Shown here one piece after another: positions 1 to 64,000 of a stretch of DNA of 64,000 nucleotides. Source of the stretch: Eledone cirrhosa (lineage: Eukaryota); NCBI GenBank assembly GCA_964016885.1, contig OZ024743.1:100192001-100256000 (forward strand), given 5' to 3'. How positions within the stretch are numbered: position 1 is the stretch's first letter; every line of letters begins with the position of its first letter. A program made the translations under genes and the position numbers. Under the pieces are notes generated by a model. It made no database searches. It was not told where the DNA came from and saw only the letters and a program-made list of their open reading frames with translations.

Positions 1-564
1 TACTCCCGATGTACATAAAGATTGATGAGTTTGGATAAGTTGGCGTAGAGGAAATAAGTCTGACATTTCAGAACTACTGAAGTAATCAGCTGGGTGAAAG
101 ATTATCAATGATTTCCAACTATGTGTATCTAAAAACACTACTATGTCACTTTTGAACGTAAAATAATATATATTTCCTTTTCAATAGATTTTTAGACACA
201 GTGGTATGTAGGCACTCGTCCAACTAGAAATAATAGCCAAATCTTCCTCATATTACAAATTACTGTTTCATAAAGGAAAGGGATATTATAAACATCATAG
301 TCCTGGACACAGTATTACTGATTTAACACAAGATGATCAAATGCTGGAATATCTTTGATCATAATTGTTGACTCAGGGCAGTCCTGGGGCTAAACAACTC
401 GCCGAACACTGCCCCAAACAATGATTTATTTGTATACTGTTATCAGAGGATAGGATACAGACGACTGAATTTAGAATAGTATATAACAGGTATTTGTACT
501 AGCGATCTCGGAAGGATGCAAGGTAAACTTGACTCTGGCGGAATGAACTACATTCAACTCCAAC

Positions 565-843
565 GTTGAGTGTTCCAGTTGTTTGATCAACCGGGGAGCC
601 TGCTCATGAAATTAATGTGTAAATGGCTGAGCATTCCACAGACGTGTGTATTCTTAACGTAATTCTCAGGGAGATTCAACGTGACAATGTGTGACGAGCT
701 TCCAAACAGTTTACACTTACCCAAATTCACTCACAAAGCATGGGTTGACTTGAGGCCATGGTAAATGGCACTTGCCTAAGACTCCACGCAGTGGGGTTGA
801 ACCTAATGATGCGAGGCGAACTTCTTAACCATTCTGCCATGCT
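565..843 (-). mobile_element. tRNA-derived SINE (decayed)
   Basis: Minus-strand head gcatggcagaatggttaagaag...ggttcaacccc (A/B-box-like); same body recurs at ~34760-35230, ~52985-53140 and inverted at ~24280-24480. Confidence 0.65.
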
Positions 844-1942
844 GTCCACTGTGGTTGGCTAAATTACTATACAGTATTTAGTGTGACACTCCCTATTTCT
901 GACGACTCACCCGTACTTTGACATTAAAAACAATTTAGAAACCTAGCGAGGTAACTGGTTATGAGTAACATGAATTATTGCCCCGCCCTATCATAGAAAT
1001 TGTGAAATGGCAATTTTACTTATTAAGTAATCATTAAAAAAAAAATATTCAAGATTTTAACTTCAGTAAACTACAAGAAAAGTTGGTACACAGTGCCAAA
1101 TCTATCAAAATAACAACAATAAATATAGGTAGATGTTTTCACCATTACCTCAATTCAAATAAAATTGAAGGTTTAGAAAATCTATTCCTTTGAAGGGAAA
1201 TTATATAAAAACCAACTTTGATGTAATTTTAATACAAACGAGATATCAACAAAAACTGAATAAGACTTAGTTTAGAAAATAATGTAAGAGGGGTTAAAAA
1301 CAACAACAACAATAATAATAATACATTAAGAGTGAGAAATTAGACGTTACAATTAATAGCAGATCTTTAATTGAAATTAGAATAATTAAAGATAATGACA
1401 ACTTAACTTGAGTAAGGGTAAACAAATATTTGTGAGACATGTTTACAAGTACTTGCATTGCCAAGTACTTGTATAAAGATAGTAAGAAACAGAAATAACA
1501 TAACGTCTGCTGATATCTTAAGAAAAGGATACTTTCCATGTTCGACATTGTGAAAGGTTAATATATAGATGTTAGACGAGAAAAAATAATTCCAAGTATT
1601 ATTAAAGTACTTTGATAATTGTTTCTACTATTGGCGTACTTTGATAATGTTTGACTAATTTACTCGAGTTAGTGACGTAATAGCAAAGCTAGGAAATTAT
1701 TTTCAGCCTCCTTTTTCTGGCGTGTGTGTGTGTATATATATATATATTTTAACTTTAATTATATCTCATAAAATAATACAACTGGCTTTCCACAAAATAC
1801 ATATAGTTAGCACCCCAAACACTTAAATTGGGTTATACTAACATATAACCTAATGTTTGTTGAGTGAGATGGTTACCAATCGGAGTTTAGCGTTAAGCTA
1901 TCTCTGTTATTGTATTAAATATTATATATATATATATATATA

Positions 1943-2130
1943 GGGTGAATTGGCAGTATCGGTAGAGGGTCAGACGCCATGCTTTCCAGCATAGTTACGT
2001 CCCTTTACAATCTGAGTTCAAATCCCGCCGAGGTTGACTTTGCCTTTCATCCTTACGAGGTCGATAAAATAAAGTACCAGTAATGAACTGGATCATTGCT
2101 GGCCTTGTGCCTAAAGTAGAAACAATTATA
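1943..2130 (+). mobile_element. tRNA-related SINE family 1 (core gttgactttgcctttcatccttacgaggtcgataaaataaagtaccag)
   Basis: Head tggcagtatcggtagag, B-box-like gagttcaaatccc, conserved central core and tail aaagtagaaacaattat; more than 10 copies in the window. Confidence 0.8.
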
Positions 2131-2325
2131 TATATATATACATATATATATATTGATTTTTCCCTGAATTCTGTTGGATGAATCTATATCCTGATTCTTT
2201 TTGAATTGAGTTTGAATTATTTTTCCCACATCTTACGTTAACTATTTTCCCATTTTGACGTTATAGTCACTTATATATTATGAAATACTGTGTGCTTCTT
2301 GCTCATAATAATTTCTATACTTTTC

Positions 2326-2354
<29 letters not shown>

Positions 2355-2360
<6 letters not shown>

Positions 2361-2579
2361 ATCAAAAGATGGTTAAAAGGGTTCCATGTATTTTATTATG
2401 CTCATTTCAAAATCAAATATCATCATGCGATGACATTTGCGTTTTCGTCAGATAAAATAGGGAGACTTGATATGAAGGTTAAAAAACACTTATGAATAGT
2501 GCAGTTTTAAATCAACATATAAATTGAAATGCGCATAATAAAATACATGGAACTCTTTTAACCATCTTTTGATCTTATA
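2355..2579. mobile_element. Fold-back element with 56-bp inverted arms next to (TA)n; probable Penelope-like pseudo-LTR remnant
   Basis: Arms 2355-2410 and 2524-2579 are reverse complements with 2 mismatches; contains the minus-strand hammerhead motif. Confidence 0.55.
2389..2459 (-). ncRNA. Minimal type I hammerhead ribozyme motif
   Basis: Minus strand: stem I UAUUUUAU/AUAAAAUA; core CUGACGA (plus 2445-2451); stem II with 11-bp helix CAAAUGUCAUC/GAUGAUAUUUG; GAAA (plus 2405-2408); 2-bp stem III with AUGAGCAU near-palindrome; AUA cleavage triplet. Confidence 0.7.
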
Positions 2580-2810
2580 TATTATTTATACTCCAGTCCT
2601 ACAAACTGTAGAGTGCTACTTATCCGATATCTGCATTGCTTTATTGAACTACAATAAAACTCACCTCCTACATATATATATATATATATATATATATGTA
2701 GAAGTTATATTTAATTTGTTGGGATACAACAAGCAAATATGTTTATAACTGATATAAAGCACTCAACAAATTTTTGGAGTAAAAATACAATATATTAACA
2801 AATGGAAATT

Positions 2811-3140
2811 ATATTTATAAAACCATATTTATTTTATTATACATATTTCAAGGGCCACCAGAGCAAAATATGGTGCGCTTTCATTTTTCACTATTCCAAC
2901 GGCTTAATTTAAATATACTGTTTTAAACCTTTCCAACACTAATTTACATAATAAACCAACAATAAATCTAATAACTCCACTATCCAGGAGACTCCAACCA
3001 GAATGGTTGCATTTTTTAAGGGTATGTCAATATTTATTTATAAAACTAACCTATATTATATTTTATCTGATGAAAGCACACCATAGTTTGTTCTGTGGCC
3101 CTTGAAATATGTATAATGAAATAAATATGGTTTTATAAAT

Positions 3141-3143
<3 letters not shown>
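2811..3143. mobile_element. Fold-back element with ~74-bp inverted arms; probable Penelope-like pseudo-LTR remnant
   Basis: Arms 2811-2884 and 3070-3143 are imperfect reverse complements; the right arm overlaps the hammerhead motif; abuts (TA)n. Confidence 0.55.
3059..3123 (+). ncRNA. Minimal type I hammerhead ribozyme motif
   Basis: Stem I UAUUUUAU/AUGAAAUA; CUGAUGA 3067-3073; interrupted stem II (AAG/CUU, CACA/UGUG); GAAA 3104-3107; near-palindromic stem III AUAUGUAU; AUA 3113-3115. Confidence 0.6.
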
Positions 3144-3207
<64 letters not shown>

Positions 3208-3927
3208 TTACTGTTACTCCGAGTTTCACATTTCCAATCAGAAATATATCAGCTTACAATAAATATAAAACTCTATAATACATATTGAGTACTTTTTCTC
3301 CTTAGACATACATTGTGTGTATGTATTACTTTTTTATACTAGTTCCAATCATAGAAGTACGGTTGTGCTGGAGCACCGTCTTCAAAGGTTTAGTTAATCA
3401 TATTGACCTCAATATCTATTTCAGTTTGCTACATATTTTATCAATTTTAATTTGTACTTCTAAAGAACTGGGATTTAATATCAATGTAACTACAAATATG
3501 ACAACAGTTAAAACAACCAAGTAACCTGTAGACCACAGCACAAACCAGATTGAAGACAAAAACTCCAAACAGGCAGGACCATATTTAAGAAACTTGTCTT
3601 CAATATTGGTAGAGATATCTCTAATATACCCTCAAACAAAACAATATTTTACAGTGCTGCAAACCTCTTTAACAAAACTGTAAGACGACAAAATACTAAA
3701 TAAAAATGGAAGGGAGGTAACTAGAAATTTACTATCACATGTTTGTTTATATTAGAAACAAGTCATACTTTTTATTTAATCATGTTTATGTATATAAGAA
3801 AACAATAAAGCGAGATTTTTCATTTTATTTTTAACAATAATAATAAAAGCAATTTCTAATTTAGGAAATAATAACAAAATTACGAAACTACTTGTCGGGA
3901 ATCGAAATTATATACAGCGCGCATTAC

Positions 3928-3933
3928 CACGTG
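3928..3933. promoter_or_regulatory. Canonical E-box CACGTG (candidate Myc/Max site)
   Basis: CACGTG ends 9 nt before the URB1 ATG, in a locally GC-richer patch. Confidence 0.55.
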
Positions 3934-3942
3934 TGGAACAGC

Positions 3943-4102
3943 ATGGCTGCGGAAGATGTTAATTTGAAAATGCACAAGAAAAGAAGCAACGATGAAGTGT
4001 TTCCGGATGAACCAACAGCTAAAGTTGCTAAGGTTTCAGATGATGATTATACTTATACAGAATTTATGACAGAACTGAAAGATATTTCAACTTGTTTCAA
4101 AG
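3943..4102 (+). CDS. URB1: URB1 exon 1
   Basis: ATG 3943, MAAEDVNLKMHKKR...ISTCFK; donor AAG/gtaag, ends phase 1. Confidence 0.85.
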
Positions 4103-7100
4103 GTAAGACGAAATGTTCTTCGGACGTTGTATATGTTTACATGTAAAAATCCTGTGCATTAGTGTTTATATAATTTTATACGATATAACAATGTTTATGA
4201 ATAGAAAACTAATGTGAACAATTCTGTCAATGTTTCACTAAACGTTAGCGATTTTTGAGAACTGATCTGGGGATTGAAATGTCGACGTGTCAAACATTGG
4301 TTCTGTGGGTCTTCGTAGTTTTTGTCATGTCGCTCGCCACACCAAGTTGAACATAATCATAAAATAGGCGCTAGCGGCAATCTCTGTTCTAGAGTCACCT
4401 GGATTGTCCAGAGTCAAAGGTAAGAGGTCCGATGATCTTACCCTTTGCCTCAATGTGGGACGCCAGTGACACTTTCGCACTTTTTCACATCGTAGAGATG
4501 TATGTTACTGCATAAACTATTGAAATAACGATATATCGGTAAATTATATTTTTCTGTCTGGAATTTGAGACGTTCGGGAGAATTGGGCCGTTAACAACGG
4601 TGAAATAACAGGTGAGAGTGCTTTGGTTATTCCAACACCTCACCCTCACTATATCATATGAGCTAATGCCCTGATTCGGCTCACATTAAATATTATTAAA
4701 GCAAAATACCAGTATTTCCTGTTGTGTGTAATTTAGTGTGCATGTCTTCTTCCTCGTTTTTCTCATCATTTTTACTTCTTTTTTTTATCCATTTGTTTCT
4801 TTTGCAAATCATAAACTTTCATTATCATTAATTACCATATGATAATGATTATTGTGTACAGTGCTCAGGTGTACTACATACAACTCATCAAAGGTGCATG
4901 TATAATACATAGAATAATGTTCAAATGTCAGGAAAATGAACAGTGTAAGAGTCATGAAATACATGTGTTTGCGTATGTATGGGGGAGGAATATTAGCTGT
5001 AGTGTTGGCGAATCTCAGGAAGCATATGGCGTTTTTAAAGGATGCAGTGTCTCGACAGCTAATAACTGATGCAGGTAGTTTGTTCCATGCTTCAGCAACT
5101 CTGTGTGTGAAAAAATGTATGTCAGTGATATGTGTGTATTTTTTAACCCGTTCATTAACATATTTCCAATGAAAGACACTGTTTCGATTAATTTTGAAAT
5201 TGTTTTTAATTAGTGGAATTTAGTAAAATAACTATAAATGCAGTCTGCTAATATGCAAATCAGGCCGATCAGTCACTGTGTATTTTTGAAAATAGCATAT
5301 ATTTTCACTAGCTCTGACAGTTTGGCAGGTGAACAGTGAGCTGTACTGATGAAGGGTGATACCCAGATACATTAGGATCTGCAGTTCTGTTCACATGCCA
5401 ACACAAGAGCAAGAATGAAGGGTTCATTCTACTGACATGGCTATAAAATTGAGGCTTGTTTGCAAACGAATCGAATGTTATTATTAATATAAATGCTGGT
5501 ATTTGTCGTCTTTCACCTTTTTAGATCAGACAAGATGCATTGCTGTGTCTTTTCCATCTTTATGCATTCTGAATTAAAATCCCTATTACTGTCGACAGAA
5601 AGATGGCGATACTTCTGCTAGGAGTTGTAAATGGCAGATAGTGTCAATAATGGAGACCAATGCAAACATAGTTTCTTTGGTCTAATCTGACTATATAGTT
5701 TCCTTTACTTTTCTTTATAAACTTTTTCAAAATAATTTGATTTTAGGCTAAAATCAATATTTTAAAAGAATTTGAATATATTGCTCTAACTGTATTGTAT
5801 ACATATTCTTTCTTTTCAGCTGTATCTAAATTCATAAAATCATCTTCAAACTATCCAAATACTCGTTATGACTTGGTGGCTCATTATTGTGAAAATTGCA
5901 ATAACTTTGAAGGTCTCTTCTCTGTTCTCTTTTCATGTGAGAAAAGCCCTCAAGATGTAAGCAATATTTTTAATCACCGGTTTTAATAATAATCTAATTG
6001 TTTACATTCTCAGTGAAAAGAATTCTGATAAAGTTAGATTAATCTGCAATACTGCATATTATCATTGGGTGGTAGACTTCATCTATCACCCAGACCTTGG
6101 ATGCCTTTAGTGGAGTTCATTGTATTGCAAGCATTCGGACCATGTCCAGGAGATCCAAGTTAAACAATTCTTCCTATAACTTTCTTGCTTTTATTCTATC
6201 ACAAGTACCTTCCACATAACACTGGAATTGAAGCATTTGCTCCTGTCACATAAGGCACATCAGACACAAAGGAAGCAAGATTTTGATTTGGAGGTTGAAT
6301 GGAGCAACATCTATTTTTAGTTATACTGATTGAGAAAATGTTGTAGGGAAAAAACCCTGAACACCCTGCGTAACTAAAAGTGGACTGGACGAAATGTCTA
6401 TAATTAATAACTGAAGTGAACTGTCAGTTAGACTGTTCGTAGTCAAAGTTTCTCAAGTTATAAAATGAGAGAGTCTAATAGAAAATATCTGTTTAATGTA
6501 AAGTGGAATATCTAAATCGAACTATTAATGTTGCTGTTTGAATATGCATTAACACCCAATTCAATGGCTTAACAAAAGATTTTTGAAATATAATGCATAG
6601 CAGTCTCTAGAAGTAAGCTATTCTCTATCAGACCTTTAGAAATGTATGATTACAAGCTAGTAATTGAACGTTATTTTTTTGTTTTTGTATCTTCACTTTT
6701 TTTTTTTAGGCTGTTTGTGTTTTTGATGCTCTTCGCCTGATTTTGATTCGTATTGCTAGTGACTTGAGCAATTACATACATCTTGGTAACATGATTGCTC
6801 AGAAAGTTCTTACTGTACATTTAGAAATGCTAGAAACTGTTCTCAACTTGCGTAATGCTCAAGCGAAATCAGGCTTAAAACTTTTAACAACCATTGTTGT
6901 TTACAGTGAAGCTACTGCAAAATTAGTCATACATAAATTTGCATTTCATAAACATGTCTTCATCAGTAGAATGTTAAACAGAAGAAACAAGATGGTAAGT
7001 CTATGACTTTCTCTTTATATTTTATGTGTATAAAATGATTGTCATTTTTGTCTTGCAAAACTTGCCCTGTCTGCTGAGTTGTTACAACTCATATCTATGT

Positions 7101-10100: not shown

Positions 10101-13100
10101 TGTCATTTCTTTGACACATCTGAAGAGTCCATCTGACTCTTGATTCTAAAACATCAGCATATGTCACTCAATCACCTAACAAAAAACTAAGCCCTTTGGA
10201 AATTAAGATATTATATTTTTCATAAGTTCTATGAATATTTGCAGTTTATTACTGTGTGAAATAGTAGAGACTATGTTTTGATGAGTTGACCCTTTTGTGA
10301 CTATATGTCTAGTAATATACACAGTTGTCTGTGTGATCTTTTCATTATTAAATTGATATCTAGAACATAGCAAAAGGATTAAATTAATGTGATATCAAAT
10401 CCTCACACCTGTCTCCTAGAAATCACTACACAAAGATAGTCTTCCGCAGTGGCTCTGATAATCTAATTTGTATATGTGATATGACTTTCTGGCATTCACA
10501 GACGTGTGTTTGTATGAAGTAGGAAAATTTATTAATCCTGTCAATGTATTTCTAATGAAAGATTTTTGCCTATGATTTTCAATTAATTTTGAAAATAAAA
10601 ATTTGGAAGTATTTAGTAATATCATCATCATCATTGTTTAACGTCCATCTTCCACGCTAGCATGGGTTAGTATAACTTATCTTTCTCAATACTAAGTTTT
10701 TGTGTGGAATATGATTTGACAAAGGTTCATTCTGTGCTAATAAAGGTTAGACAGTTCATAAGAAAACAAGTCAATACTCAAGCAGAGCTACTGACCTCTC
10801 AGATGGGTTAGAAGCCTGCATCTAACGAAACATTCCCACTTTCTACCATTGTGGCACCAACATTAGGGAGATTGTCATGTTTTTGACATATTTAAACAGT
10901 TCTGACCCTCCTTACATAAGATTAAGATGGAATGTTTTTTATGTAGATATAAGCATGGTTTGGATGAAAGGGGTTAAAAGAGGGCAGTAAATGTAAAGGA
11001 GAACCCTAAATACGCTATGTAATCATTAAATCTGTGATCAATGCTCATTCTAACCTGCTTTTGTTTAATTACAGATCGTCAGAAATAACTTGATTAATAA
11101 AAGTGTCAAGGTGAAACTATTTAAATGCTTTGAGATAAATGAATTAATTAAGTTGTACAGCTGGTATGGTCCTGAATATTGGAAAACAATATTGTTACAA
11201 AAGACTAAAGTAAGTATAATTATTGTAGTAATATACATTGATTTCTTTAACCCTTTAGCATTTACATTACTCTAAATTTACTATTTTATTTTCATGGTAA
11301 AGGCTTTATCTCACATAATATTGAATCTATGAGATCATCATCACCGTTTTACGTCCGTTCTTCCACGCTAGTATGGGTTGTCCTGTTATGGGCAGTGTCC
11401 GGTTGGCTGACCATGCCTTGCTCATACAGGAACTGATTCTGGCTTGATTTCTACAGCTGGATGCCCTTCCTAACACCAAGCTCATTTAGAGTGAGTGTTG
11501 GGTCCTTTTTTAAAGTGGGAAGGGGTGGGGGCATATTGTCTATATGCTTCAGCTTCGGCTTGTACCCATGGGGCATCGGGTCTTCTGTATCACTGTGTGA
11601 CGCCAGAGATCATGGTCGTGTGTCATCTTGATATTATTTATTTTGAAAACAATATCTTAACATCAGTATGAGCAGCCTGTTTGAAGAGAAAGAGGTGAGA
11701 GAATTCTGGCCGGATACAGCCGGTTTAAATGCTAAAGGTTTAAAACGGCCATTTCCAGCCAGAATTCTCTCACCTCTTTCTGTTCAAACTGACTGTAATT
11801 GGCCACTCATACTGGTGTTAAGGTATTGATCTCAAAATAAATATCAAAATCTCGTAGATTCGCGATATTATGTGAGGTAAAACCTTTACCGCATTAATAT
11901 AAAGTAATGTAAATGCTTATGGGTTGAGTAATACATCTATTTCATAAATCATCATCATCTTACATTCATTTTCCATGATGACATGTGTTGGATGTGTCCT
12001 CACAGTCTGAGACTAGACTTGTCTTGCTCATATGTTCCATATTTGGTTTAGCTTCTACAACTAGATGCCTTTCCCAAAGCTAACCACTTTACAGAATATA
12101 TTGGGTGCATTGTATATGGCACCAACACTTTACAGAGTGTACTGGAAGTATCATGTCAGCAAGACTGAGGAGTCTTCATTCAGTAATAGTTTTGCTTAAA
12201 GATTTCGACAGCTAGATGACCTTATTACAAACAACTGTGATGAAATGAACCAAGTGTGTTGTGACACTAACACTAGAGATGTCTTCTTTATCATACACTG
12301 GATATGGTTTGTGATAACCTCTCTCCCAGATGGATTATTTTCACAAAAGTCAAGAACTCTTTCTCTTGAGTGGAAGTTGGCAAGAGAGAAAGAAGAGCTA
12401 GCCAAAGGAATAAGGATAGTTCTTAGTAGCATTATAGTTACATTGAAACTGAATCATCACTTGAGAAAGGAGGAAGAAACTTTATTTTATCCTACAAGTA
12501 CCAGCTTAATAAGAAAGTTGGTTATTTTATTAAATCTTTCCAAATTCTTGATTATTTTCAAAAGGATTTGAATAATAGACTTTGTCTTTCATTAGAAATA
12601 TCATAATGAAAGAGTTACTCGACTCTTGACCACGACAGGAAAGATTTATGAAGTGTAAAGCTCTGAAAAATACCTATATTCACCTCATCCTCAATCTTTA
12701 TGCCATTACAAAAAGCTAACAGGCTGATATCTCAGTTCTCATTACCAAAACAATTATAGATAGATCCAAGTAAGATTTCTCCAGGATTGATAAAATAAGT
12801 ACCAGTAATAATACAGAATCTGACATGTTCAAAGTTTTCAATTATTCTCATGGATATTCTTTGCAGGCGAATGTACATGGCAATCCTGAAGATCTTGCTG
12901 TGATACGAACATACACACATGAACTTCTTCTTGAACTTTTGACCTCTCCACATAATGGCATTATATTCTTTGATACAACCTTTGGGCTGTAAGTTAATCT
13001 TTCTTTTCACTGCTATCTCACACTTTAATCCTTTTGATACCAACCCCAAATAACCTCTGGTTCTGTGAAACAAAATAACCTTTATTGAAGGATTCCTGTT

Positions 13101-16100
13101 TAAATAAAAACCTTCCAAACGTTATTTTACATTAGAATCTTCTGTTATTACAAATACAATCTTAATAATGAAATATTTTAGTAAATCCCTCCAAATTCTT
13201 CATTAATTAATCCAAATATGATGTATTTCATTATAAATATAGTAATGAAAGGGTCATGATTCTGTGCAAGCTTACATCTGCATAACAATCTAAACCTCAG
13301 AAACTGCACTAAAGTTTGAGGAAAAACTCTTTTATAGTCAGCAGCGGTAGTAGCTACCTGAACGTTTTCCATCCTGTTCTCACTCCTGTTACCGTACACC
13401 CACCACCACAGTTTATTAGGTCACCTATGTAGCAGAAGCTATCAACTGCTTCTACAGAACCTATATATTATATACATATATAGAGAGAGATTATATGTAA
13501 AATCATGACCACGGTGCCAAGTGGCTTTGGTTTGTGTGTCAACCTGAAATCGCCTGGTGCTGCGGTCGGGATTTTACATACCTTTATACCCTCTCTGCAT
13601 CTCATCATACATCAAGTACTCCCATGATTAGTGGTCTCCTCGGTCTCAGCACCGCAGACTCTCTCTTTTTATATATATATGTGTGTGCTTGTGTTATGTT
13701 CTATAATAGTTCAACAAAAAAAAAAGATTGATAAAATAAGCACTGGGTTCATATGCCTGAAACCATTAACAGGGTTAATATATGATGTTTTGGAATATTT
13801 TTGTAGCTACAGACATAAATTACCAGTCTCATACTTTTGATTTATATAGCAATTGCAACAAGACTCTACGATATGTTTTGGAGAATATTACCAAGAAGTT
13901 TTTATTTCAAGATCCATTAATAAACGAACTTATTTGGAAAGCATTTCAAGTTTGTCCTGAACAAATTCAACCATTTTATAAGAAAGTAAGGTGTCACTTC
14001 AATTTTAAGAGTGACTCCAACTTCTTGCTATTCCTTGAATTCTCTAAAAAGGTAAGATATTATTGCACTACATTTGTGATATTGTATAAACATTATAGAT
14101 GTAGTGGGATCACAGGGAAGCTAACTAAGAATATAGATTTTATATGTGGCCGGTGCTCTGGTGCAATAAGTAGCAGCAAGTGCCCACAGAATACTAGCTC
14201 ATTCCATTGCACAGATGGTTCTATAGAAATAGTGGACACCTTCCATTACCTGGGTGACAAAATCAGCAGTGGGGGAGGGTGCTCTGAAAGTACAGTAGTT
14301 AGAGTCAGAACGGGATGGAAAAAGTTCAGAGAGCTTATACCACTATTGGCTGCTAAAGGGTTCTCTGTAAAAATGAAAGGCAGGCTGTATGATGCCTGCA
14401 TACGAACAGCAATGTTACATGGCAGTGAGACCTGGGCATTGTGTGCAGAGGATCTACGCAGACTGGAGAGAAACGAAGCTTGCATGCTCCGCTGGATGTG
14501 TAATAGTAATATACGTGAACGGCAAAGCATAAACAAACTAAGGGAGAAATTAGGAATAAGAGGGATCAGATGTTGTTTACTCGAGAGAAGACTACGTTGG
14601 TATGGTCACGTGATGCGCATGAAAGACGACAGCTGTATAAAAAAGTGCGGGGCGATAAAAATAGACGGTAGCCACGGAGTAGGCAGACCCAGGGCCGACT
14701 TGATAAATTTCGACCTCACACTTAAACCTCTCCAAGACAATGTCACTGGACCGAGATCTTTGGCGCTACACAGTCATACAGAAGACCCGCCTTGCCTAAG
14801 TACAAAGCGAAATCTACAGTCAGTAGGCACCTCTAACAAAATACACGCCCGTCCCACTACTCCGACCTCATCCACACCACCCCCTTAAATGTGAAGTTAT
14901 GTTGGTACCACAACATCCAGTCCGAAACAAATGAGGTCGTGTAGGTGTCACAACAAAAAAAAAAAACACAGTCCACGCTGTAATGTGGCCGTGTAGGTAA
15001 CACGGTAAAAACCTCCCAGTCCACACTGTAATCGTGGTTGGTGTTAGGAAGGACATCCAGCCGTAGAAAACCCGCCAGACAGTCCTATACGAGCAGGACA
15101 ACAAATCTTGCCTCAAATGGGAAAACTCCCGTCCAAACCCATGCTAGCGTGGAAGATGGACGTTAAACGATGATGATGATGATGATGATGACTACTACTA
15201 CCATTGCTACTATAATCTGTCAACATCACTACTACTACTATATAGTCTGTCAACATCTCTACTGCTACTACTATATAGTCTGTCAACATCACTACTACTA
15301 CTACTACATAGTCTGTCAACACTACTACTGCTACTATATAGTCTGTCAACATAACTACGACTATATATTCTGTCAACATCACTACAACTATATAGTCTGT
15401 CAACATCACTACGACTACTATATAGTCTGTCAACATCACTACTACTACGACTATATTGTCTGTCAACATCACTACTACTACTACTATATTGTCTGTCAAC
15501 ATCACTACTACTACTATATAGTCTGTCAACACTACTACTACTACTATATAGTCTTTCAACATTACTACTACTACTATATAGTCTGTCAACACTACTACTG
15601 CTACTATATAGTCTGTCAACATTACTACTGCTACTATATAGTCTGTCAACATTACTACTGCTACTATATAGTCTCTCAACATTACTACTGCTACTATATA
15701 GTCTGTCAACACCACTACTACTACTACTATATAGTCTGTCAACACCACTACTGCTACTATATATTCTGTCAACATCACTACTACTATATAGTCTGTCAAC
15801 ATTACTACTACTACTATATAGTCTGTCAACACCACTACTACTACTACTATATAGTCTGTCAACATCACTATTACTACTACTATATAGTCTGTCAACATCA
15901 CTACTACTACTACTATATAGTCTGTCAACGCCACTACTACTACTATATAGTCTGTCAGCACCACTACTATTACTACTATATAGTCAACACTACTGCTACT
16001 ACTACTACTATATAGTCTGTCAACATTACTACTACTACTATATAGTCTGTCCACATCACTACTACTACTACTACTATATAGTCTGTCAACATCACTACTA

Positions 16101-19100
16101 CTAGTATTACTATATAGTCTGTCAACATCACTACTACTACTACTATATAGTCTGTCCACATCACTACTACTACTACTATATAGTCTGTCCACATCACTAC
16201 TACTACTACTATATAGTCTGTCCACATCACTACTAGTATTACTATATAGTCTGTCAACACTACTACTACTACTACTATATAGTCTGTCAACATCACTATT
16301 ACTACTACTATGTAGTCTGTCAACACCACTACTACTACTACTATATAGTCTGTCAACATCACTAGTACTACTATATAGTCTGTCAACACCACTAGTACTA
16401 CTATATAGTCTGTCAACATCACTAGTACTACTATATAGTCTGTCAACATCACTACTACTACTATATAGTCTGTCAACACCACTAGTACTACTATATAGTC
16501 TGTCAACACCACTAGTACTACTATATAGTCTGTCAACACCACTAGTACTACTATATAGTCTGTCAACACCACTAGTACTACTATATAGTCTGTCAGCATC
16601 ACTAGTACTACTATATAGTCTGCCAACATCACTAGTATTGCCATCAACATACTTCCATTACATGGTATATAACATCATGTAACATGTTTTGCCTGCTATC
16701 AAGTATTGTGCAGTTCATTACAAACGAAGCCAGTACTCAAATGGAGCTTCAGACTTTTCAAACAGGCCAGGGGCCCCACATTTGCACACTTTACTGAGTG
16801 CATTTTATTATGGCTCCATCAATAGGGAGGTTTTCTTATCTTTGACACAACCCTCCCAACTTCTTAAAACTATTTTGCCATACTGCCATGGATTGGACAA
16901 TTGTATATATATATATATATATATGTGTATGTATATATATATATACATACATTCCTCTTCATTACTGAGTGTCAGGGCTGATGTATAATTGCATCAATGC
17001 TCTCTGTAGTTCCCCTTCCTCCACATACCATGCACTCTGCCATCATTCTTCCCATCCATTCCCTAATGTCATCATTCCAGTGTCTCTTTGGTCTTCCTTT
17101 CAATCTTCTGCCATCAATGCATCCCTCAGAGGTTCTGGACCTTGATGACATGCCCAAACTATTGTAGCTTATGGTTGCTTCTCTCCTCCAAGACCAACTC
17201 AATATTTTTGTGGTCTATCCATCTGAAACACAGTGCCTTGCCTGTAACATATTGTTTCAAACAACGTTGGTTTGTTAACATCAATGGCTTTTTGAGTGTT
17301 GAAACAGGTCAAAAGCTTTCTTGTAATGAATCAAGGCCATGTACAGGGAGACATTTTACTCACATGCCTTTCTATAATGATCCTAATGTTGAAGACTAGA
17401 CCCAACTTTCTTTCAAAAGCCCTTCTACAACCCAGAGAACTCTTCCTCCATGGTCTTCTGTTTTCTGCAGCAGGACTCGGAGAAGTATCCTACTAGCGTG
17501 GCTGACTAAAGTGATGGTGCGATTTCCTTTACATTGTCCATAGAAAGCTTGCCAAAAATAGGTTGGGGGTAGGAAGGGCATCCAACCATAGAAAGTTTGC
17601 CAAACAAATAGTGGAGAGGGCCCTTCACTTGTGTCAAAGACATGACTACCTCTCTAACACTGGTGCCATAATAAAATGCACTCTGTAGTATGGGACCAAT
17701 TGTGAGATGCGGACATTAACCCTTTAGCATTTACATTACTCTATATTTATTATATTTTCACAGTAAAGGCTTTACCTTACATAATATCAAATCTACAAGC
17801 TTTTGATATTATTTATTTTGAGAACAATACCTTACCATAAGTATGAGTAGCTGGCTATGGCTGGTTTGAACAGAAAGAGGTGAAAGATTTTTGGTGGGAT
17901 ACAGCTGGTTTAAATGCTAAAGTGTTAAATGTTGATATATAAGCAAATAGACCATCCATCAGTGTCAAAACTGTTGGAGCATCCATTTTCTTATATTTTC
18001 ACATGTCCACAATTACACACACTGTTACTATTAGATGTAACTGATTGTGGCTAATTTTGTGCCATCTGTGAACCTGTTTATCTTTTGTATTAGGTAGCAA
18101 ATTAGCATTGTTGTTAGAGAGTAAGACAAATGCCTTGCAATATTTATTCTAGCCCCCTGTGTAGTGAGTTCAAGTATCAGCAAAGTCAACTTTGCTTTTC
18201 AGGCTTTTGAGGTCCATAGCAGTGATGAGATGCCTTGTAGTATTTGTTCCAACTATTTATACTCTGAGTTCAAATTCTGCTGTGGCTTATTTGAGTGGTA
18301 GACTTAATCCGTCACCCAGTTTAACTCCACCATCTGTGTGTTTTAAGGAGTGACTAAAATGGTTGGTGACGGGAAGGGCATTCAGCTGTAAAACATTGTC
18401 TCAAAAGGTTTTGTCCAACCCATGCCAACATGAAAAAGTCAATGTAAAAATGCTGCTGGTGATGATCTGGCCAGTTTCTGAAAAGGGTCATGGGTACTGC
18501 TCTTCCCTTCTAAAGTCTGTCTTAAGCCAGACGGCTCATTAGACTGGTGCTTATCTCTGTTTTATGGCATGAAGCAACTGAGAGTACAAGACTTCCCGCT
18601 GGACAGGACACCAGTCTATCTCAGGGTTAAACCGCCAGCTATTTTCAGCTGAGTGTAGAAATGAAGTGTTTTGCTCAAGAACACAACACTCAACCCAGGA
18701 GTTGAACCCATGTCATTATGATCGTAAGTCCAACACCCACACCACTAGGCCACGGACCTCCACTTTTTGACAGTAACAAATGTACCATATCTACTCATAT
18801 ATAATCTGAGAAATATGTGACAGAAAGAAAATCAATGATAAAAGGGGGGTAGTTTTTTGTAAATTTTCACCAACTTCAAAATTCTTCATAAAAAATAATA
18901 GGAAATATGAATTTCACATCGAAAGTAAAACTGGCGAAATATTCATCTCCACAACGAAAATATTTTCGTTGTGGAGATGAATATTTCGCCAGTTTTACTT
19001 TCGATGTGAAATTCATATTTCCTATTATTTTTTATGTTTTGGATGTATATGGTCCTCAAAATGGTCAAGAATTGGTAAAAAAATCATTACAAATGGAGTT

Positions 19101-22100
19101 GTGAAACAAAACCTATACTCTGAACAACGCTTAAAACATCTTATATATCAAAATATTAAAACTTCATAAATATATTCTCCATCCATGACAATTTAAAAAC
19201 AGTGCCAATCTAAACATAATGTGTTGGCTTATAAATCGTGTTTGGATTTTTGCCTATTTCTCAGGAATAAAGTAATGATTGACTTACATTAGAGTACATA
19301 CGGTATATATATCTAAAGATTTTGAATTATCTGATTCGTTTTAGGTTTTGGAATATCAATACGAAGTCCTTACTCCTTTGAAGATATCGAAAAAATTTAA
19401 TCTGGAGAAACTTACAGAGATGATATTTTCTATTCTTATACCATCTACAGCGATCATGAACGTTATTGAAAAGAACTTAAATGTAAGTAATCATTGTCGA
19501 AGGCAGTGAATTGGCAGAGTCATTAGAACATTGACTAAAATGATTTGTAATTTTCTTTGCAGCTTACTGCGCTCCGATTTCAAATCCCACCAAGGTCAAC
19601 TTTGCTTATCATCCTTTCAATAAAAAAAAAAGTAGCAGTGCAGTATTGGGATTGATTCTTCCTTTATATCTCTTTCTCACTTCTCTATCATGCTATATTC
19701 TCTGGAAAAATCAGTTGTGTTCAGAGCTGGAGAGGGATGGGCTCATTAAGGGCGGTGGATTGGCAGTACCGTTAGAGAGTCGGACACCATGTTTGGAGCA
19801 TAGAGTTACGTCCCTTTATGATCTGAGTTCAAATCCCGCCGAGATTAACTTTGCCTTTCATCCTTACAGGGTCGATAAAATAAAGTACCAGTAATGCACT
19901 GGCCTTGTGCCAAAAAATAGAAACAATTATTAAACTTAATAAATGTTCTTACATAAGATTAAGCTGAAAGGTTTTCAGATAAATATAAACAATTGCAAAC
20001 ACAGGAAAATATCTATAACCACAACTGCTATAGATAATAGCTTAGAAAATAAGGTAAAATACCTTCGATCTATAGATGGAGAACATAACCAGCAACCACT
20101 ACGAAGACTTAAACACCGGAGTTCAATTCTTCATAGTAGCTGCTAGCTACTTTTTACGTCTGTATGGGTATTTTACCTAATTTCCAGACAATCTGGAACA
20201 GCTGTTCTCCTAGCCTTACATAATTACTTTTCCTTTCATCCTTCATCAATAGAATAAGTACTAGCATCCATTTAATTAAATATTCCCTCCTCCTCCCTTC
20301 CTTTTGTCTATAGTAGAAGTTGATTATGATATTGGCTAAGTGTTCTTGAATGCTAAGGAGCTTAATCAATAGAAATCAAATGGTGAAGAAATTTATTTAC
20401 TAGAAATTTTTTCCATATGCTGGTGCATATGTGTGTATGTGCATATACATACATTTGTATGTATATGCACATTCATACAAACACACACATACATTCACAC
20501 AAACACACACATACATTCACACACACAGCATAGTTTTTCCACCATCCCCTTCCTTCCTTTTATACACGCATTCACGCAGGCAGCAGACGTAAAGAGAGAG
20601 TAGTAGTATGAGGTAGTCAAACAACTCCTCTCTCTTTACATGTGACAGAATCGCAGAAATTTATATATATAGATATATATATATACTATACAATAAACTT
20701 CATTGAATGAATTTAAAAGAGGTTGTTGATATCTTTCTGGTTGTTTTCTTTTGCAGAGTCCTGACTTATATATGAGACATGTTTGCCTGGATTATATATT
20801 CACATTGTCGAAAAAGTTGTCAAACATCTCAAACTATTGCACATCAGGAAATTTTCTGGCCCACACTACGGTCTACAACAAGGCAGACATTGAAGAGTTC
20901 CATTCCCTATTCATAACTGGAATGAAGAAAGTAAGTCAACAATGAGTGAAGCAAGTCAGCTTTCATTAACCCTTTAGCATTTAAATCAGCCATATCCGGC
21001 CAGAATTCTCTCACCTCTTTCTGTTCAAACTGGCCGTAACTGGCTGCTCATACTGATGTTAAGGTATTGTTCTCAAATTAAATAGTATCAAAATCTTATA
21101 GATTTGATATTATGCGGGATAATTGTGTGAGATAAAGCCGTTACTGTGAGAATACAATAGTAAATATAGAGTAATATAAATGCTAAAGGGTTAAGTACAG
21201 TTTATAACAAATATAAGATATATAAATTTGAAAAAGAATTTGTTCCTTATAGACTTTTGTTCAAGAGTGAGAATTCTACTTTTCTATATCTAATCATCAT
21301 TGTTTAATGTCTGTTTTCTCCGCTAGCAAGTGTTGGACAGGTCTATCTATATACAGGTAGCATCTTTTGACTCATCTGAAAGGTCTGTGGCACTGATTAA
21401 GTAATGAGTCGGTCTGTGAGATTCCATACAAGCCTCATAGCAAGGAAAACGGATCTTGAACGATAATAATGATGATGATAAACATGAAGGCATGTTTATT
21501 TTTTCTTTGTTCATTTTTCTCAACCATATTGAATGCAAACAGTTCATGGTTAAAAGGCAATATGATTTGCTCTAAGAGTAGAAACCTAAAATTTATATTA
21601 TTGCATATGGAGGCACATGGCTTAGTGGTTAGAGCATTGGCCTCGCAATCGAAGGGTTGTGAGTTCAATTCTCAGACCGGGTGATATGTTGTTTCCTTGA
21701 GCAAGCCACTTTATTTCACATTGCTCTAGTTTACTCAGCTGTTGAAATGAGATGATAGGGACTGGGGTCCATATCATTCCACTGCAAAGTGGCCGTGGAG
21801 GTGCCACGGCAAAAAAACACCCAGCACTCACTGTAAATGAGGTTAGTGTTAGGAAGGGCATCCAGCTGTAGAAATCAAGCCAGAATCAGTTCCCATCCCA
21901 CCCTTGCAAGCAGGGAAAAGCAGACATAAAATGATGATGATGATGAAGGAGCTTCAAGACAAGTATGTATGTGTGTAACATTGCTATAGTAATGCTCTAC
22001 TGTGCACAGTATTATAGGGATAGTTATTCTCTGATGAAGGGATAAAAATATCTGAAATATGGCATAAGGATAATCATGTTTTTTCTATGTATTGAGGAAT

Positions 22101-25100
22101 AGTTGAAAATGTTTCCTCTTCTGACTTCATTATTTTCACAGTGAAGACTTTTAATTAGTAGTTATATTTACATTAAATTTACCTTAAAATATTCATATAT
22201 ATATATATATATATAGTATTTCAGTATGTTATTAAATGCCTGTCTTTTTGTTGTTTTGTCTCTTACAACAGTTGCTTCCAAGTACTGCTATTATATATTG
22301 CTGTTGGGTAAAGATGGACAAGCAAAACCCTAGAGAGACAGATACTATAGAAGATCATTCAGGTTTGAGTTAGCTACTTTCTTATATTTTGTTCTGAAGA
22401 TTTAAAAATATTTCTCTCACATATTTAGTTTAAGAAGCAATCGAACACCTTGCATGTTGATTAGCTCATAAGATCTGTTTGAATTAATGTATGGTTTAGG
22501 AGTAGTTAGTTGAATGTGAAACATCCAGCATGTTGTGTTCTTGAGCAAAACACTTCATTTCACATGGCTCCCATATATACAACTGAAAATGAATACCAGC
22601 AGTAGCTGAGAGTTAAACCATGCGATGGATTGACATCCTTTCCAGGGTGGCAGGGTGTCTTGTACTCTCAGTCACTTAATGTCAGAGAAACCAAGATAAG
22701 CACCGGCCTAATGAGCCTCGTAGCTTGAGATAGGCTTTTAGACTTTTTTTTTTAAAGTACTATAGTTGATTTAATCCAGTTCTTCTTCAAAATTTCTGAC
22801 CTTGTGCCAATGTCAGAAATTATGGCAGCAAATTGGCAGAGTTGTTAGAACATCAGAGAGAATGCTTTGCAGTATTCATTCTGGCTCTTTCAGTCCAAAT
22901 TCTGCTGAAGTCAACTTTGTCTTCCGTCTTTTTTAGGTTGATAAAAAAAAGTACCGGTCAAGTACTGGGGTCAATTCTTCTATATCTCTTTCTCACTTTC
23001 TATTCTTCTCTGGAAGAAATCTGCTGTGTTCCAACCTGAAGAGGGATAGGCTCTGCCAGGCTTAAAATGCCCAATAAACGCTGCATGTCACTACAGTACC
23101 CACGCCACTCCACTCCACTCCGCAGCACTGCACTGTTTAAATATCAATAATTTACAATTATATAATTTTACCTGATTTTATTTGGTTAAATTTGACTTTT
23201 ATGGGCAGGTGAAATTAATTAATAGGGGCATTTGAAGTATCAACCAGGTGCAAATACTGGTTTAATTTTAAATACGTTGTTTTTGGCATAATACTTGATA
23301 TATAAGGATCACTAAACCATATATCAGTGTTCCAGTAATTCCACAGTCTTGGAAATTGTTTTATACCGAACATAATATTTATGGTAAAAAATGCTTGTAT
23401 TTCCGCAGCATCTGTCGGTCGCCAAACAGATGGGGTTTTCCTCGATTTGAAATCTGTTGTTGGGCATATCGATTAATCTCTTCTGCCACAACTTCGAAGA
23501 AATTTTGTGGTAAAAACAAAAAGAAATAATCCAGTGCTTTAGCATTGGGAGCTAATGTATCTTGTGGAGCAGTCTTTTGAATAAAATCGGGAACATATAT
23601 TGGTGTGGTATTTTTCAACCACGTTGCTGTAATATTTTCAATGGCGTCCTGGAGATCTCCTTCGTTTTCACTTTCAAAACAACAATCATCATCGGATGAA
23701 ATTTCACAAGTGTAAACTTCTGATTCATTTGAAGATAAATCACTAATATTATCTTTTGTTTCTTGTTCATTCTGAATGTCGTCATGTGTAAAACCTTCAA
23801 AGTCGGTATCGCTACTTTCGCAAGCCATGTTGATACACAAAAAATCTGTTCTACTTTCAATGTTAAAAAAACACGTGTTGTTTCAAGTTATTTCACTATA
23901 TTAAGTGTTAATTTTCGCGGTAAGGGCCTAATCTCGCAGTGTTCTCGAATCGATGACGGTATTGTTTATTAGAACGATATTTTAGTGTGGGTGTTATCGG
24001 TCGGTATCGGGCAGTTTGAACAAATGAAGGGAAAATAATTGCTGCCGGTTTGGGGCGGTTTGAACACTAAAGGGTTAAATCCACAAACTTAACTAGCAAG
24101 CAATTCTAAGTGATTTGTGTTGTTATGGTAATGGGGGAGATGATTGTGTTGGTAACACAGATAGAAATGGTAGAAGCTCCTCAGTGAATTATGTTGGAAA
24201 CTATTTCAGATTGCTTCTATTCTGGATGTTGTTGTGCTAATGATGACAGTGATTGTTGATATTGTTGCAGACATATTTGTGTGATTAAGAAGTTTGCATG
24301 GCATCATGCGCAAGTGTTTTTGTTATAGACTCTGGTCAACCCTTGTGAGTGAAACTAGGTAAACAGAAAGTAGATGGATTGTACTTGTAATTCAAAGGTC
24401 CAGCATTATCAAGTTGATCTGACTTAGAAATTACACTAAGGGAACAGGTATCTGTGGAATTCCCAGCCATTAACATGTGGCTGTGACTTGTGGTTGTTGC
24501 TGATGTTGTGGTAAAAATTGTAGAAGTTATAGCAATGCCTGTTGCTGTTGTTTTGTTTTCAGGAAGTCAATATCAAGCCTGATTCCATTGCCCATTTAAA
24601 CTGGCCGTATCTGGCCAGTTCTCTCACCTCTTTCTGTTTAAACAGGCCATAACTGGCAACTCATACTGATATTAAGATATTGTTCTCAAAATAAATAATA
24701 CCAAAATCTCATGGATTCGATATTATGCAAAAATGCAATAGTTAATATAGAGTAATGTAAATGCTAAAGGGTTAAAGCTAGCTCCCAATGTGTTGATATC
24801 CTTAAAATTATCATGAATGTTACAACTTCCCATTCTTCCCTTAATCCTTTAACATTTACATTACTCTATATTTACTATTATATTTTCATGGTAAAGGCTT
24901 TACCTCACATAATTATCTCACATAATATCGAATCTATGAGATTTTGAAAGTATTTATTTTGAGAATAATACCTTAACATCAGTTTGAACGACCAGTTACA
25001 GCCAGTTTCAATAGATAGAGGTAGAGAATTCTGGCCGGTTTGAACATTAAAGGGTTAAAAACATACATGTATATATCTGAATTGAAAAGTCTTCTTTTTA

Positions 25101-60765: not shown

Positions 60766-60900
60766 ATGTGTAAACGTAGAAAAAGAAAACAATAACAATG
60801 CTTGGGTCCACATCAGTTATATATATATGGGGGACAGGGAATTCTGGGGCATGAGAGTGAGATCAGTCATCTCGACAGTAGTCGACGAATGATGATGATG

Positions 60901-63622
<2,722 letters not shown>

Positions 63623-64000
63623 AAATAATACAGAAAGTTCGATAAGCTCGGGCGTCGTGTAAAATGTTTTGAGGTATTTTAGTTTTCTATGGTCTGAGTT
63701 CAATTCCTATCCAGATCAACTTTACCTTTCATCCTTCTGGGGTCGATAATATCTTGGCCCAGTCAAGTACAGAAGCCCATATAATCCACTTTCCTTTTCC
63801 CTCCCCAATAAAATACAGAAATCGTTTATTATTTTTATATATTTCTGTATATAAAATATTTTATATATTTCTCGTACATTAAATATGTACCAGTAATATC
63901 CTGTTGGTCAAGTCAATCGGTTTGAGCTTTATAATTTGCTTGTTCCTGTTTGGTGGTTATTTATAGTATTTAGGCGTGTCCCATTACATTCTGAGTTCAA

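What the first reader, a model, noticed from the sequence alone, without database searches (positions are those of the whole stretch)
2355..2579. Intact-core minimal hammerhead ribozyme in a fold-back element upstream of URB1
Seen: on the minus strand, UAUUUUAU-CUGACGA-[AAAC-G-CAAAUGUCAUC-gcau-GAUGAUAUUUG-AUUUU]-GAAA-UGAGC-AUA-AUAAAAUA. This gives a perfect 8-bp stem I, every core nucleotide, an 11-bp stem II helix and a very short stem III. The inverted second arm (2524-2579) starts just before GAAA and has the perfect palindrome AUGCGCAU in stem III. Known: Penelope-like retroelements carry minimal type I hammerheads with short palindromic stem III in their pseudo-LTRs, thought to cleave as dimers, and often have an inverted truncated pLTR. 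Inference: this is a ribozyme-bearing non-autonomous Penelope-like family inserting at (TA)n, which a protein-based annotation would miss.
Basis: partly seen in the sequence, partly recalled or inferred. Interest (0 to 1): 0.8.

Follow-up and report, generated by a model that had tools for sequence, protein, structure and literature searches.

The report
Penelope retrotransposon stub carrying a hammerhead
The hammerhead ribozyme motif is real but sits in a tiny head-to-head stub of an abundant, protein-coding Penelope-like jumping gene, and thousands of such stubs start at one sharp spot that is likely where the element's uncut RNA begins.

Summary
The type I hammerhead on the minus strand (2459-2389) is as described and beyond chance. 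It is not a separate non-autonomous family. It is the end module (pLTR) of an autonomous Hydra-clade Penelope-like element: 800-aa RT plus GIY-YIG-type ORF, identical intact copies on four contigs, about 12,000-16,000 end-module arms. The insertion is longer than reported (about 2355-2672): a sense arm and an inverted arm with a roughly 90-bp tail, between (TA)n tracts. Three genome-wide patterns inform mechanism. 64 of 70 head-to-head pairs join one short and one tailed end. 48 of 100 arms start within about 3 nt of one point 61 nt upstream of the ribozyme, often with an extra G. Only 1 of 100 starts at the cleavage site. The template was therefore likely an uncut transcript from the pLTR promoter, copied twice at one target. 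The window copy is likely dead: stem III is mutated and the inverted arm would mask the ribozyme. Cleavage and the transcription start are untested. A sister family showed no such start point. Verdict: new member of a known kind.

The parts
2328..2357 (.). (TA)n target tract at the short 3' end of the sense arm
   Evidence: the same flank type in most of 30 copies
2355..2520 (-). Sense arm: end module of the Hydra-clade element, from the fixed 5' start point (+1 = 2520) to the short 3' end (+168 to +171)
   Evidence: 97% identical to ORF-linked copy L156
2389..2459 (-). Type I hammerhead motif: stem I 8 bp, core CUGACGA/GAAA/UA, long stem II, minimal stem III; predicted cut between 2397 and 2396
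2399..2404 (-). Stem III; this copy has a private C-to-A change at 2402 that breaks the family palindrome
   Evidence: predicted self-dimer -2.6 versus -10.5 kcal/mol
2521..2523 (.). Three untemplated bases at the head-to-head junction
   Evidence: row L001
2524..2582 (+). Inverted arm: second copy of the end module, 5'-truncated just upstream of GAAA (3' half of the hammerhead only)
2583..2672 (+).
2673..2697 (.). (TA)n tract shared with the neighbouring insertion
2697..3143 (+). Second insertion of the same design from a sister family: tailed inverted arm 2697-2884, sense arm 2885-3143, hammerhead 3059-3123
   Evidence: ORF pieces 41-57% identical to the first family's protein lie upstream in L182

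Best explanation
The feature is a two-armed, extremely 5'-truncated insertion of an autonomous Hydra-clade Penelope-like retrotransposon, likely made when the element's protein copied its end module twice from uncut RNA into one (TA)n target. Shown: the hammerhead lies in the end module (pLTR) that flanks an 800-aa RT and GIY-YIG-type ORF; arms have two fixed 3' ends about 90 nt apart; head-to-head pairs nearly always join one of each; about half of all arms share one 5' start 61 nt upstream of stem I; almost none start at the cleavage site. Inferred: (1) the fixed start is the transcription start of the pLTR promoter, and the frequent extra G is a copied cap; (2) the protein, probably a dimer, nicks both strands of (TA)n and primes one cDNA at each internal start site; (3) on a transcript from a single pLTR, reverse transcription runs out at the RNA 5' end, giving stubs, while full-length copies need tandem transcripts; (4) here one cDNA ran to the 5' end, the other stopped at the base of stem II, and the two were joined head to head; (5) the family ribozyme would cut only as a dimer through its AUGCGCAU palindrome, in a step not needed for insertion; (6) this copy is likely a dead end, because it lacks the sequence beyond the tail, its stem III is mutated and its inverted arm would mask the ribozyme.
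For: ORF link: L121 shows a 690-bp direct repeat holding the hammerhead on each side of the ORF; tandems in L149 and L164. Over 50 of 150 scored matches have the full 821-codon open frame (counted by eye). Five ORFs at four loci on four contigs differ at 0 of 2400 nt. Hydra motifs RW, DKT, CxCx5C, CxxC and CxH are present, and the N-terminal half parallels Hydra-1_Obim by eye. The ESM Atlas gives GIY-YIG (31% of one cluster) and RVT_1/HTH_animal look-alikes at 0.92-0.96. Abundance: 9,804, 11,955 and 16,144 exact pattern matches, controls 0, 0 and 11. Ends: 64 of 70 pairs are short plus tail. Start point: 48 of the first 100 arms; 2,111 arms carry G where the long copies have C; joints leaving 2515-2520 are also seen in contigs of public DNA runs. 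Cut site: 96 of the first 100 arms span it, 1 starts at it. Structure: all 6 changes at paired positions between old and young subfamilies keep pairing, 0 changes in 18 core and stem III bases; other families pair stems I and II with different sequences although pairing was not demanded. Literature parallels: two internal RT starts define the tail, both strands are cut and extended, uncut RNA is the main substrate (PMC11167929); a TATA-less internal promoter in D. virilis Penelope (PMC2377424).
Against: No RNA evidence: the runs that hold the element behave as DNA (introns evenly covered) and the two RNA runs gave 4 and 0 pieces. The extra G is not proof of a cap: in 30 G-bearing junctions, 7 agree with the internal CATG snap-back template over 4 nt or more, several are explained by microhomology, and 5 single-base junctions can be read as the partner's templated C. 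The sister family showed no pile-up at the site I guessed (about 6 of 100 truncated) and no sharp one in 37 held loci. Within-family covariation is not significant (364 of 500 shuffles as high). Pfam found no RT or GIY-YIG family in the ORF, the PDB sequence searches were empty and the fold job did not finish. Pair 10.1-11.1 is A-U, not the usual G-C noted in PMC4209133. No tree was built. Cleavage is untested.
Confidence: 0.75

Rival explanations
1. Same element, but the fixed 5' start is not a transcription start. It is a site where reverse transcription stalls and snaps back, or where two cDNAs anneal, at the CATATG palindrome (the self-priming idea of PMC3846280, possibly on an antisense template).
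For: 17 of the first 100 arms form a perfect palindrome at this point; many 5' additions read ATG or CATG, matching an internal template about 50 nt downstream; the sister family has no sharp start in the loci examined; palindromic junctions are described in PMC3846280.
Against: 31 of 48 arms at the start point are not palindromic and join partners broken elsewhere. Single extra G residues occur where neither arm nor snap-back needs them (L223, L232). Half of all arms read through the palindrome, and only 2 of 100 break in the next dozen bases upstream.
Confidence: 0.25
2. One reading: a distinct non-autonomous, ribozyme-bearing mini-element (retrozyme-like) with its own short master copy, mobilised in trans as a fold-back unit.
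For: Thousands of short copies share one 5' start; 40 copies at 89-100% identity have the same overall layout; non-autonomous PLE derivatives are known (PMC8557442; bioRxiv 10.64898/2026.07.22.740005).
Against: The junction differs in nearly every copy and the tail can be on either arm. The stubs carry the same subfamily variants as ORF-linked copies. They stop at the tail end and lack the downstream sequence present in full copies. They are not head-to-tail tandems. A read-through transcript would bury the ribozyme (stem I probability 0.0 versus 0.7-0.83 for the arm alone).
Confidence: 0.06
3. A cut-and-paste MITE with 59-bp terminal inverted repeats and a TA target; the hammerhead is coincidental.
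For: 57 of 59 nt inverted repeat flanked by TA.
Against: One arm extends about 90 bp beyond the other, arm length varies from under 60 bp to about 2.8 kb, the module flanks an RT ORF, and the motif is absent from 200 shuffles.
Confidence: 0.01
4. This copy has been co-opted as a regulatory RNA or promoter element of URB1, about 1.27 kb downstream.
For: Proximity to the likely URB1 start codon near 3943.
Against: It is one of more than 10,000 arms, sits among other repeats in TA tracts, and carries 5 private changes in 166 nt, one of them in stem III. No expression data.
Confidence: 0.02

Closest known systems
Hydra clade of C-terminal EN+ Penelope-like elements (Craig et al. 2021, PMC8557442; passages, section 11 and part of the supplement seen), including Hydra-1_Obim
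   Same: Single ORF with RW and DKT motifs, CxCx5C linker, C-terminal GIY-YIG-type domain without CCHH, hammerhead near the 3' end, (TA)n target, partial tandems and inverted 5'-truncated copies, tail at one end.
   Different: A different family: its hammerhead sequence differs from that listed for Hydra-1_oBim and the proteins are only distantly alike by eye. The unit is about 3.7-3.9 kb rather than under 3 kb, the tail is about 90 bp rather than 30-40 bp, there is a roughly 60-aa Asn-rich insert before the linker, pLTRs are clear, and the copy number is very high.
Poseidon element of Anolis carolinensis studied in vitro (Frangieh et al. 2024, PMC11167929; first half of the text seen)
   Same: Two internal RT start sites bracket the tail, AT-rich target, both strands used, hammerhead cleavage not needed for insertion.
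   Different: Different clade. There the hammerhead overlaps the ORF start, here it lies about 200 nt upstream of it. The part read does not describe a fixed 5' start of short copies or the one-short-one-tail pairing.
Minimal and palindromic-helix-III hammerheads of metazoan PLEs (Cervera and De la Pena 2014, PMC4209133; first half seen)
   Same: Type I topology, long helix II, palindromic helix III suited to dimers; mostly found in truncated copies, some as opposite-strand pairs 100-700 bp apart.
   Different: Helix I is 8 bp, pair 10.1-11.1 is A-U with no extra base after A9, and helix II has a mismatch at its fourth pair that recurs in the related families here.
Non-LTR retrozymes (bioRxiv 10.64898/2026.07.22.740005; first fifth seen)
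   Same: Short, non-coding, type I hammerhead, related to PLE pLTRs.
   Different: Retrozymes are head-to-tail tandems with a ribozyme in each unit. These stubs are head-to-head with copy-specific junctions.

Membership tests
Type I hammerhead ribozyme | Core CUGANGA, GAAA, UH with helices I-III | tested here: met
   core intact in 165 of 173 held arms
Type I hammerhead ribozyme | Helix pairing kept under sequence change | tested here: inconclusive
   Within the family only one-sided changes, not above shuffles. Across families stems pair with different sequences: 8 of 12 groups have 8 of 8 stem I pairs.
Type I hammerhead ribozyme | Match to an Rfam hammerhead model | tested here: not met
   E up to 10, window 1-6000
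Type I hammerhead ribozyme | Self-cleavage as monomer or dimer | not testable with these tools
   needs in vitro transcription or 5'-OH end mapping
EN+ Penelope-like element | Single ORF with RT and C-terminal GIY-YIG endonuclease | tested here: met
   YRDD and flanking RT motifs, LIY..YFG..R..E..N pattern; Atlas look-alikes. Pfam and PDB sequence searches were blank; fold job unfinished.
EN+ Penelope-like element | pLTR from partial tandems with the hammerhead inside | tested here: met
   L121, L149, L164
EN+ Penelope-like element | Adjacent inverted 5'-truncated copy and a tail at one end only | tested here: met
   64 of 70 pairs; tail about 90 bp, longer than the 30-40 bp reported
Hydra clade | RWK motif and DKT in place of DKG | tested here: met
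   RLRW and SDKT; the K of RWK is replaced by I or T
Hydra clade | CxCx5C linker, CxxC and CxH around the conserved E and N, no CCHH | tested here: met
   read from the alignment against the description
Hydra clade | (TA)n insertion preference | tested here: met
Hydra clade | Length generally under 3 kb | tested here: not met
   tandem period about 3.66-3.9 kb; described as 'generally', so not strictly defining
Hydra clade | Phylogenetic placement with reference Hydra proteins | not tested
   reference sequences were seen only in a supplement and compared by eye
Non-LTR retrozyme | Head-to-tail tandem of short units, each with a hammerhead | tested here: not met
   head-to-head stubs
MITE (DNA transposon) | Fixed terminal inverted repeats and uniform length | tested here: not met
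   asymmetric ends and variable arms

The most novel reading that the evidence does not exclude
The thousands of stubs are a genomic record of Penelope-like retrotransposition: they mark the capped start of a sense transcript, show that the ribozyme had not cut the template, and show that each insertion obligately pairs two cDNAs begun at two different internal start sites, as a dimeric enzyme would. This would decide the open sense-versus-antisense template question and explain tail, inversion and stubs by one mechanism, in a family that is probably still active.
Probability: 0.45. Interest if true: 0.62.

Novelty: new member of a known kind. Interest (0 to 1): 0.38.

Why it matters
The role of the hammerhead in Penelope-like elements and the origin of their inverted, tailed insertions are stated as open in PMC8557442 and PMC3846280. 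A young family with more than 10,000 arms, identical intact ORFs and sharp end points allows these questions to be counted in a genome and tested with one protein and one short RNA. Practically, such stubs look like MITEs and can be misannotated. The single copy near URB1 shows no sign of function.

Tried and rejected
Rfam search: no hammerhead match. Pfam GIY-YIG search of the genome: 10,596 candidates, but none of the 30 loci fetched carried this family's end module. Pfam scan of the ORF: nothing significant. PDB sequence searches with the protein and the alignment: nothing. Structure prediction: submitted, never finished (last try), so no fold search. Expression and RNA ends: only contigs were served; X3 and X5 behave as DNA, X6 is too shallow to tell, and the RNA runs X1 and X2 gave 4 and 0 pieces, so no conclusion on transcription or cleavage. 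A 5' start point in the sister family at a guessed position: not found. Within-family covariation: not significant. A role of the inverted arm as dimer partner: rejected, since it is antisense on the ribozyme strand and abolishes stem I in the predicted fold. No PLE ORF lies in the window itself. Earlier scan notes by sequence and by genome: nothing. No tree was built, because reference Hydra proteins were seen only as supplement text.

Full report
Observation. The motif is present as described. On the minus strand stem I (2459-2452 with 2396-2389) is a perfect 8-bp helix, the core reads CUGACGA, GAAA, UA, stem II has an 11-bp helix, and the predicted cut follows 2397. My descriptor found three such motifs in the window and none in 200 dinucleotide shuffles of bases 1-60000. 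Rfam has no matching hammerhead model, and the folding z-score is only -2.42. The neighbouring gene is URB1 by Pfam Npa1 and NopRA1 hits. The host was not identified by any search. The genome is 3.0 Gb and AT-rich; my guess of an octopus rests on recalled repeat types.

Extent. The 30 best copies fetched (of 40 scored, 1,992 candidates) show that the element is longer than reported. One arm continues for about 90 bp to a second fixed end at 2672, and both ends abut TA repeats. The sense arm starts at the same point in all of them, while the inverted arm breaks at different places and the junction bases differ from copy to copy. In L007 and L022 the tail is on the sense arm instead. The fold-back is therefore made at insertion, not inherited as a unit.

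Autonomous parent. An exact 27-mer upstream of the ribozyme has 9,804 matches, control 0, many as opposite-strand pairs 10 bp to 6 kb apart. Fetching long pairs gave ORF pieces and, in L121, a complete layout: 690-bp direct repeats holding the hammerhead, the tail continuing into a 5' UTR, and a long ORF. Over 50 of 150 scored matches to the ORF's N-terminal part have the full 821-codon open frame (by eye). Of nine ORFs compared, five at four loci on four contigs are identical over 2400 nt, which points to very recent activity (inference). The window copy belongs to an older subfamily: 97% to L156, 86% to L149 over the sense arm. That subfamily is also joined to ORF pieces (L156-L158).

Classification. 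The protein has RLRW, SDKT, YRDD, a CxCx5C linker, a GIY-YIG-type stretch, CxxC and CxH, and no CCHH. These are the Hydra-clade marks listed in PMC8557442 section 11. Its N-terminal half parallels Hydra-1_Obim by eye, but the hammerhead listed for that family is different, so this is another family. Nineteen unnamed relatives are 32-40% identical and most carry PF26215. Pfam and PDB sequence searches did not detect the domains. The ESM Atlas gave GIY-YIG and RT look-alike clusters, with those families on a minority of members. The fold job did not finish and no tree was made.

Ribozyme. Of 173 held arms spanning the motif, 165 keep all core bases and 162 keep the AUGCGCAU palindrome; many of these loci were picked by similarity. 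Between one old and one young copy there are 0 changes in 18 core and stem III bases, and all 6 changes at paired positions keep pairing. This is not significant as covariation (364 of 500 shuffles; 98.4% paired versus 35-62% when slid). A search that demanded only the core and a stem III pattern found 12 groups, two of them deletion variants of the two main families. Eight have 8 of 8 stem I pairs, and all 12 have a mismatch at the fourth pair of stem II despite different sequences. The family motif suits the dimer model of PMC4209133. The window copy has a private change in stem III that weakens the predicted self-dimer from -10.5 to -2.6 kcal/mol, and in a transcript of the whole insertion the inverted arm takes stem I to probability 0.0, against 0.7-0.83 for the arm alone.

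What the copies say about mechanism. Three counts matter. First, 3' ends fall at +168 to +177 or +251 to +263 from the start point. Among 70 head-to-head pairs in 136 held loci, 64 join a short and a tailed end, 3 are read-through plus tail, 1 is read-through twice, and 2 scored short-short (L017, whose tail is split by a later insertion, and L124, inside a larger duplication). Sixty of these loci were chosen by similarity. Second, of the first 100 of 11,955 matches in genome order, 50 continue upstream as in long copies, 48 start within about 3 nt of one point and 2 start a few bases further up (by eye). Seventeen of the 48 are perfect palindromes. Sixteen of the other 31 have G where long copies have C, and 2,111 such arms exist genome-wide. 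Third, of the first 100 of 16,144 matches just downstream of the ribozyme, 96 span the cut site, 1 has an internal deletion, 1 starts at the cut and 2 start a few bases past it (by eye; the pattern skips rows with C at its first place). Joints leaving 2515-2520 also occur in contigs of public DNA runs, though these may come from the same sample as the assembly.

Model. In vitro, a Poseidon element starts reverse transcription at two internal sites that define the tail, cuts and extends both strands, is predicted to be a dimer, and uses uncut RNA (PMC11167929). D. virilis Penelope has an internal TATA-less promoter (PMC2377424). I infer that the fixed start is the transcription start, that the protein primes one cDNA at each internal site on opposite strands of a TA tract, and that on a transcript from one pLTR the cDNA runs out at the 5' end. 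In the window one cDNA reached +1, the other stopped at the base of stem II, and three untemplated bases join them.

Against the model. The extra G has a rival source. Of 30 G-bearing junctions, 7 match an internal snap-back template over 4 nt or more, several are microhomologies, and 5 can be read as the partner's C; a few (L223, L232) are clean single additions. PMC3846280 explains junction palindromes by self-priming, possibly on an antisense template. The sister family at 2697-3143, also ORF-linked, showed no sharp start at the site tested or in held loci. No RNA data were usable.

Novelty. Hydra elements, their hammerheads, TA targets, inverted copies and tails are published. An O. vulgaris repeat annotation counts recently active Penelope families and, in its main text, does not mention ribozymes or Hydra (PMC13282606, passages). 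I found no paper describing this family, a fixed 5' start of short copies or the strict end pairing in searches. The library lacks most subscription papers, Repbase and Dfam, bioRxiv supplements were closed, and I read only part 2 of 59 plus search passages of the PMC8557442 supplement. Earlier notes of this scan report similar start points in other genomes; they are unchecked AI notes, not support. Papers seen: PMC4209133 and PMC11167929, parts 1-2 of 4; bioRxiv 10.64898/2026.07.22.740005, part 1 of 5; PMC8557442, passages, section 11 and supplement as above; PMC2377424, PMC3846280, PMC8969392 and PMC13282606, passages only.

Verdict. A real hammerhead motif in an ordinary kind of element: a new, abundant, probably still active Hydra family. 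The single copy is likely inert. The end-point statistics give a testable handle on how these elements copy themselves. Interest 0.38.

Noticed in passing
window 2697-3143: Second Hydra-type insertion from a sister family, tail-to-tail with the first across one TA tract, with its own hammerhead (3059-3123) and a tail of similar length ending in a similar motif.
   Followed up: yes
window 22015-22074 (+): Third hammerhead of the same design (8-bp stem I with compensatory differences, short stem II) inside a URB1 intron; no copies among held loci.
   Followed up: partly
window 1748-1915, 1940-2125, 2152-2330: Three more dispersed repeats between TA tracts (hits in 6, 55 and 3 held loci); the URB1 upstream region is a cluster of insertions in TA microsatellites. 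The 1940-2125 repeat looks like a SINE (recalled, not tested).
   Followed up: partly
L149:1839-4238 (residues about 555-615): About 60-aa Asn-rich insert between the RT region and the Cys linker, absent from the relatives aligned; similar inserts are described in rotifer Penelope.
   Followed up: no
L009, L024, L039, L047, L165, L187: Several further hammerhead families share a TATGTA-type stem III and a mismatch at the fourth pair of stem II, a candidate tertiary-contact site.
   Followed up: partly
L136:8270-10000 (-): A further, more distant Hydra-like ORF (577-aa open frame) beside a family copy.
   Followed up: no
L121:1850-2420 and table 5: The 3' UTR holds tandem duplications of about 110 and 200-220 bp that vary in number between copies.
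   Followed up: no
window 13779-14888, 27043-29470, 42819-46880: Fragments of AP-endonuclease/RT LINE ORFs inside URB1 introns.
   Followed up: no
window 23379-23882 (-): 167-aa open frame resembling the N-terminus of a piggyBac-type transposase (recalled resemblance, not tested).
   Followed up: no
window 15100-16680 and 60800-63700: Long minisatellite and a TA/TG microsatellite of about 3 kb.
   Followed up: no
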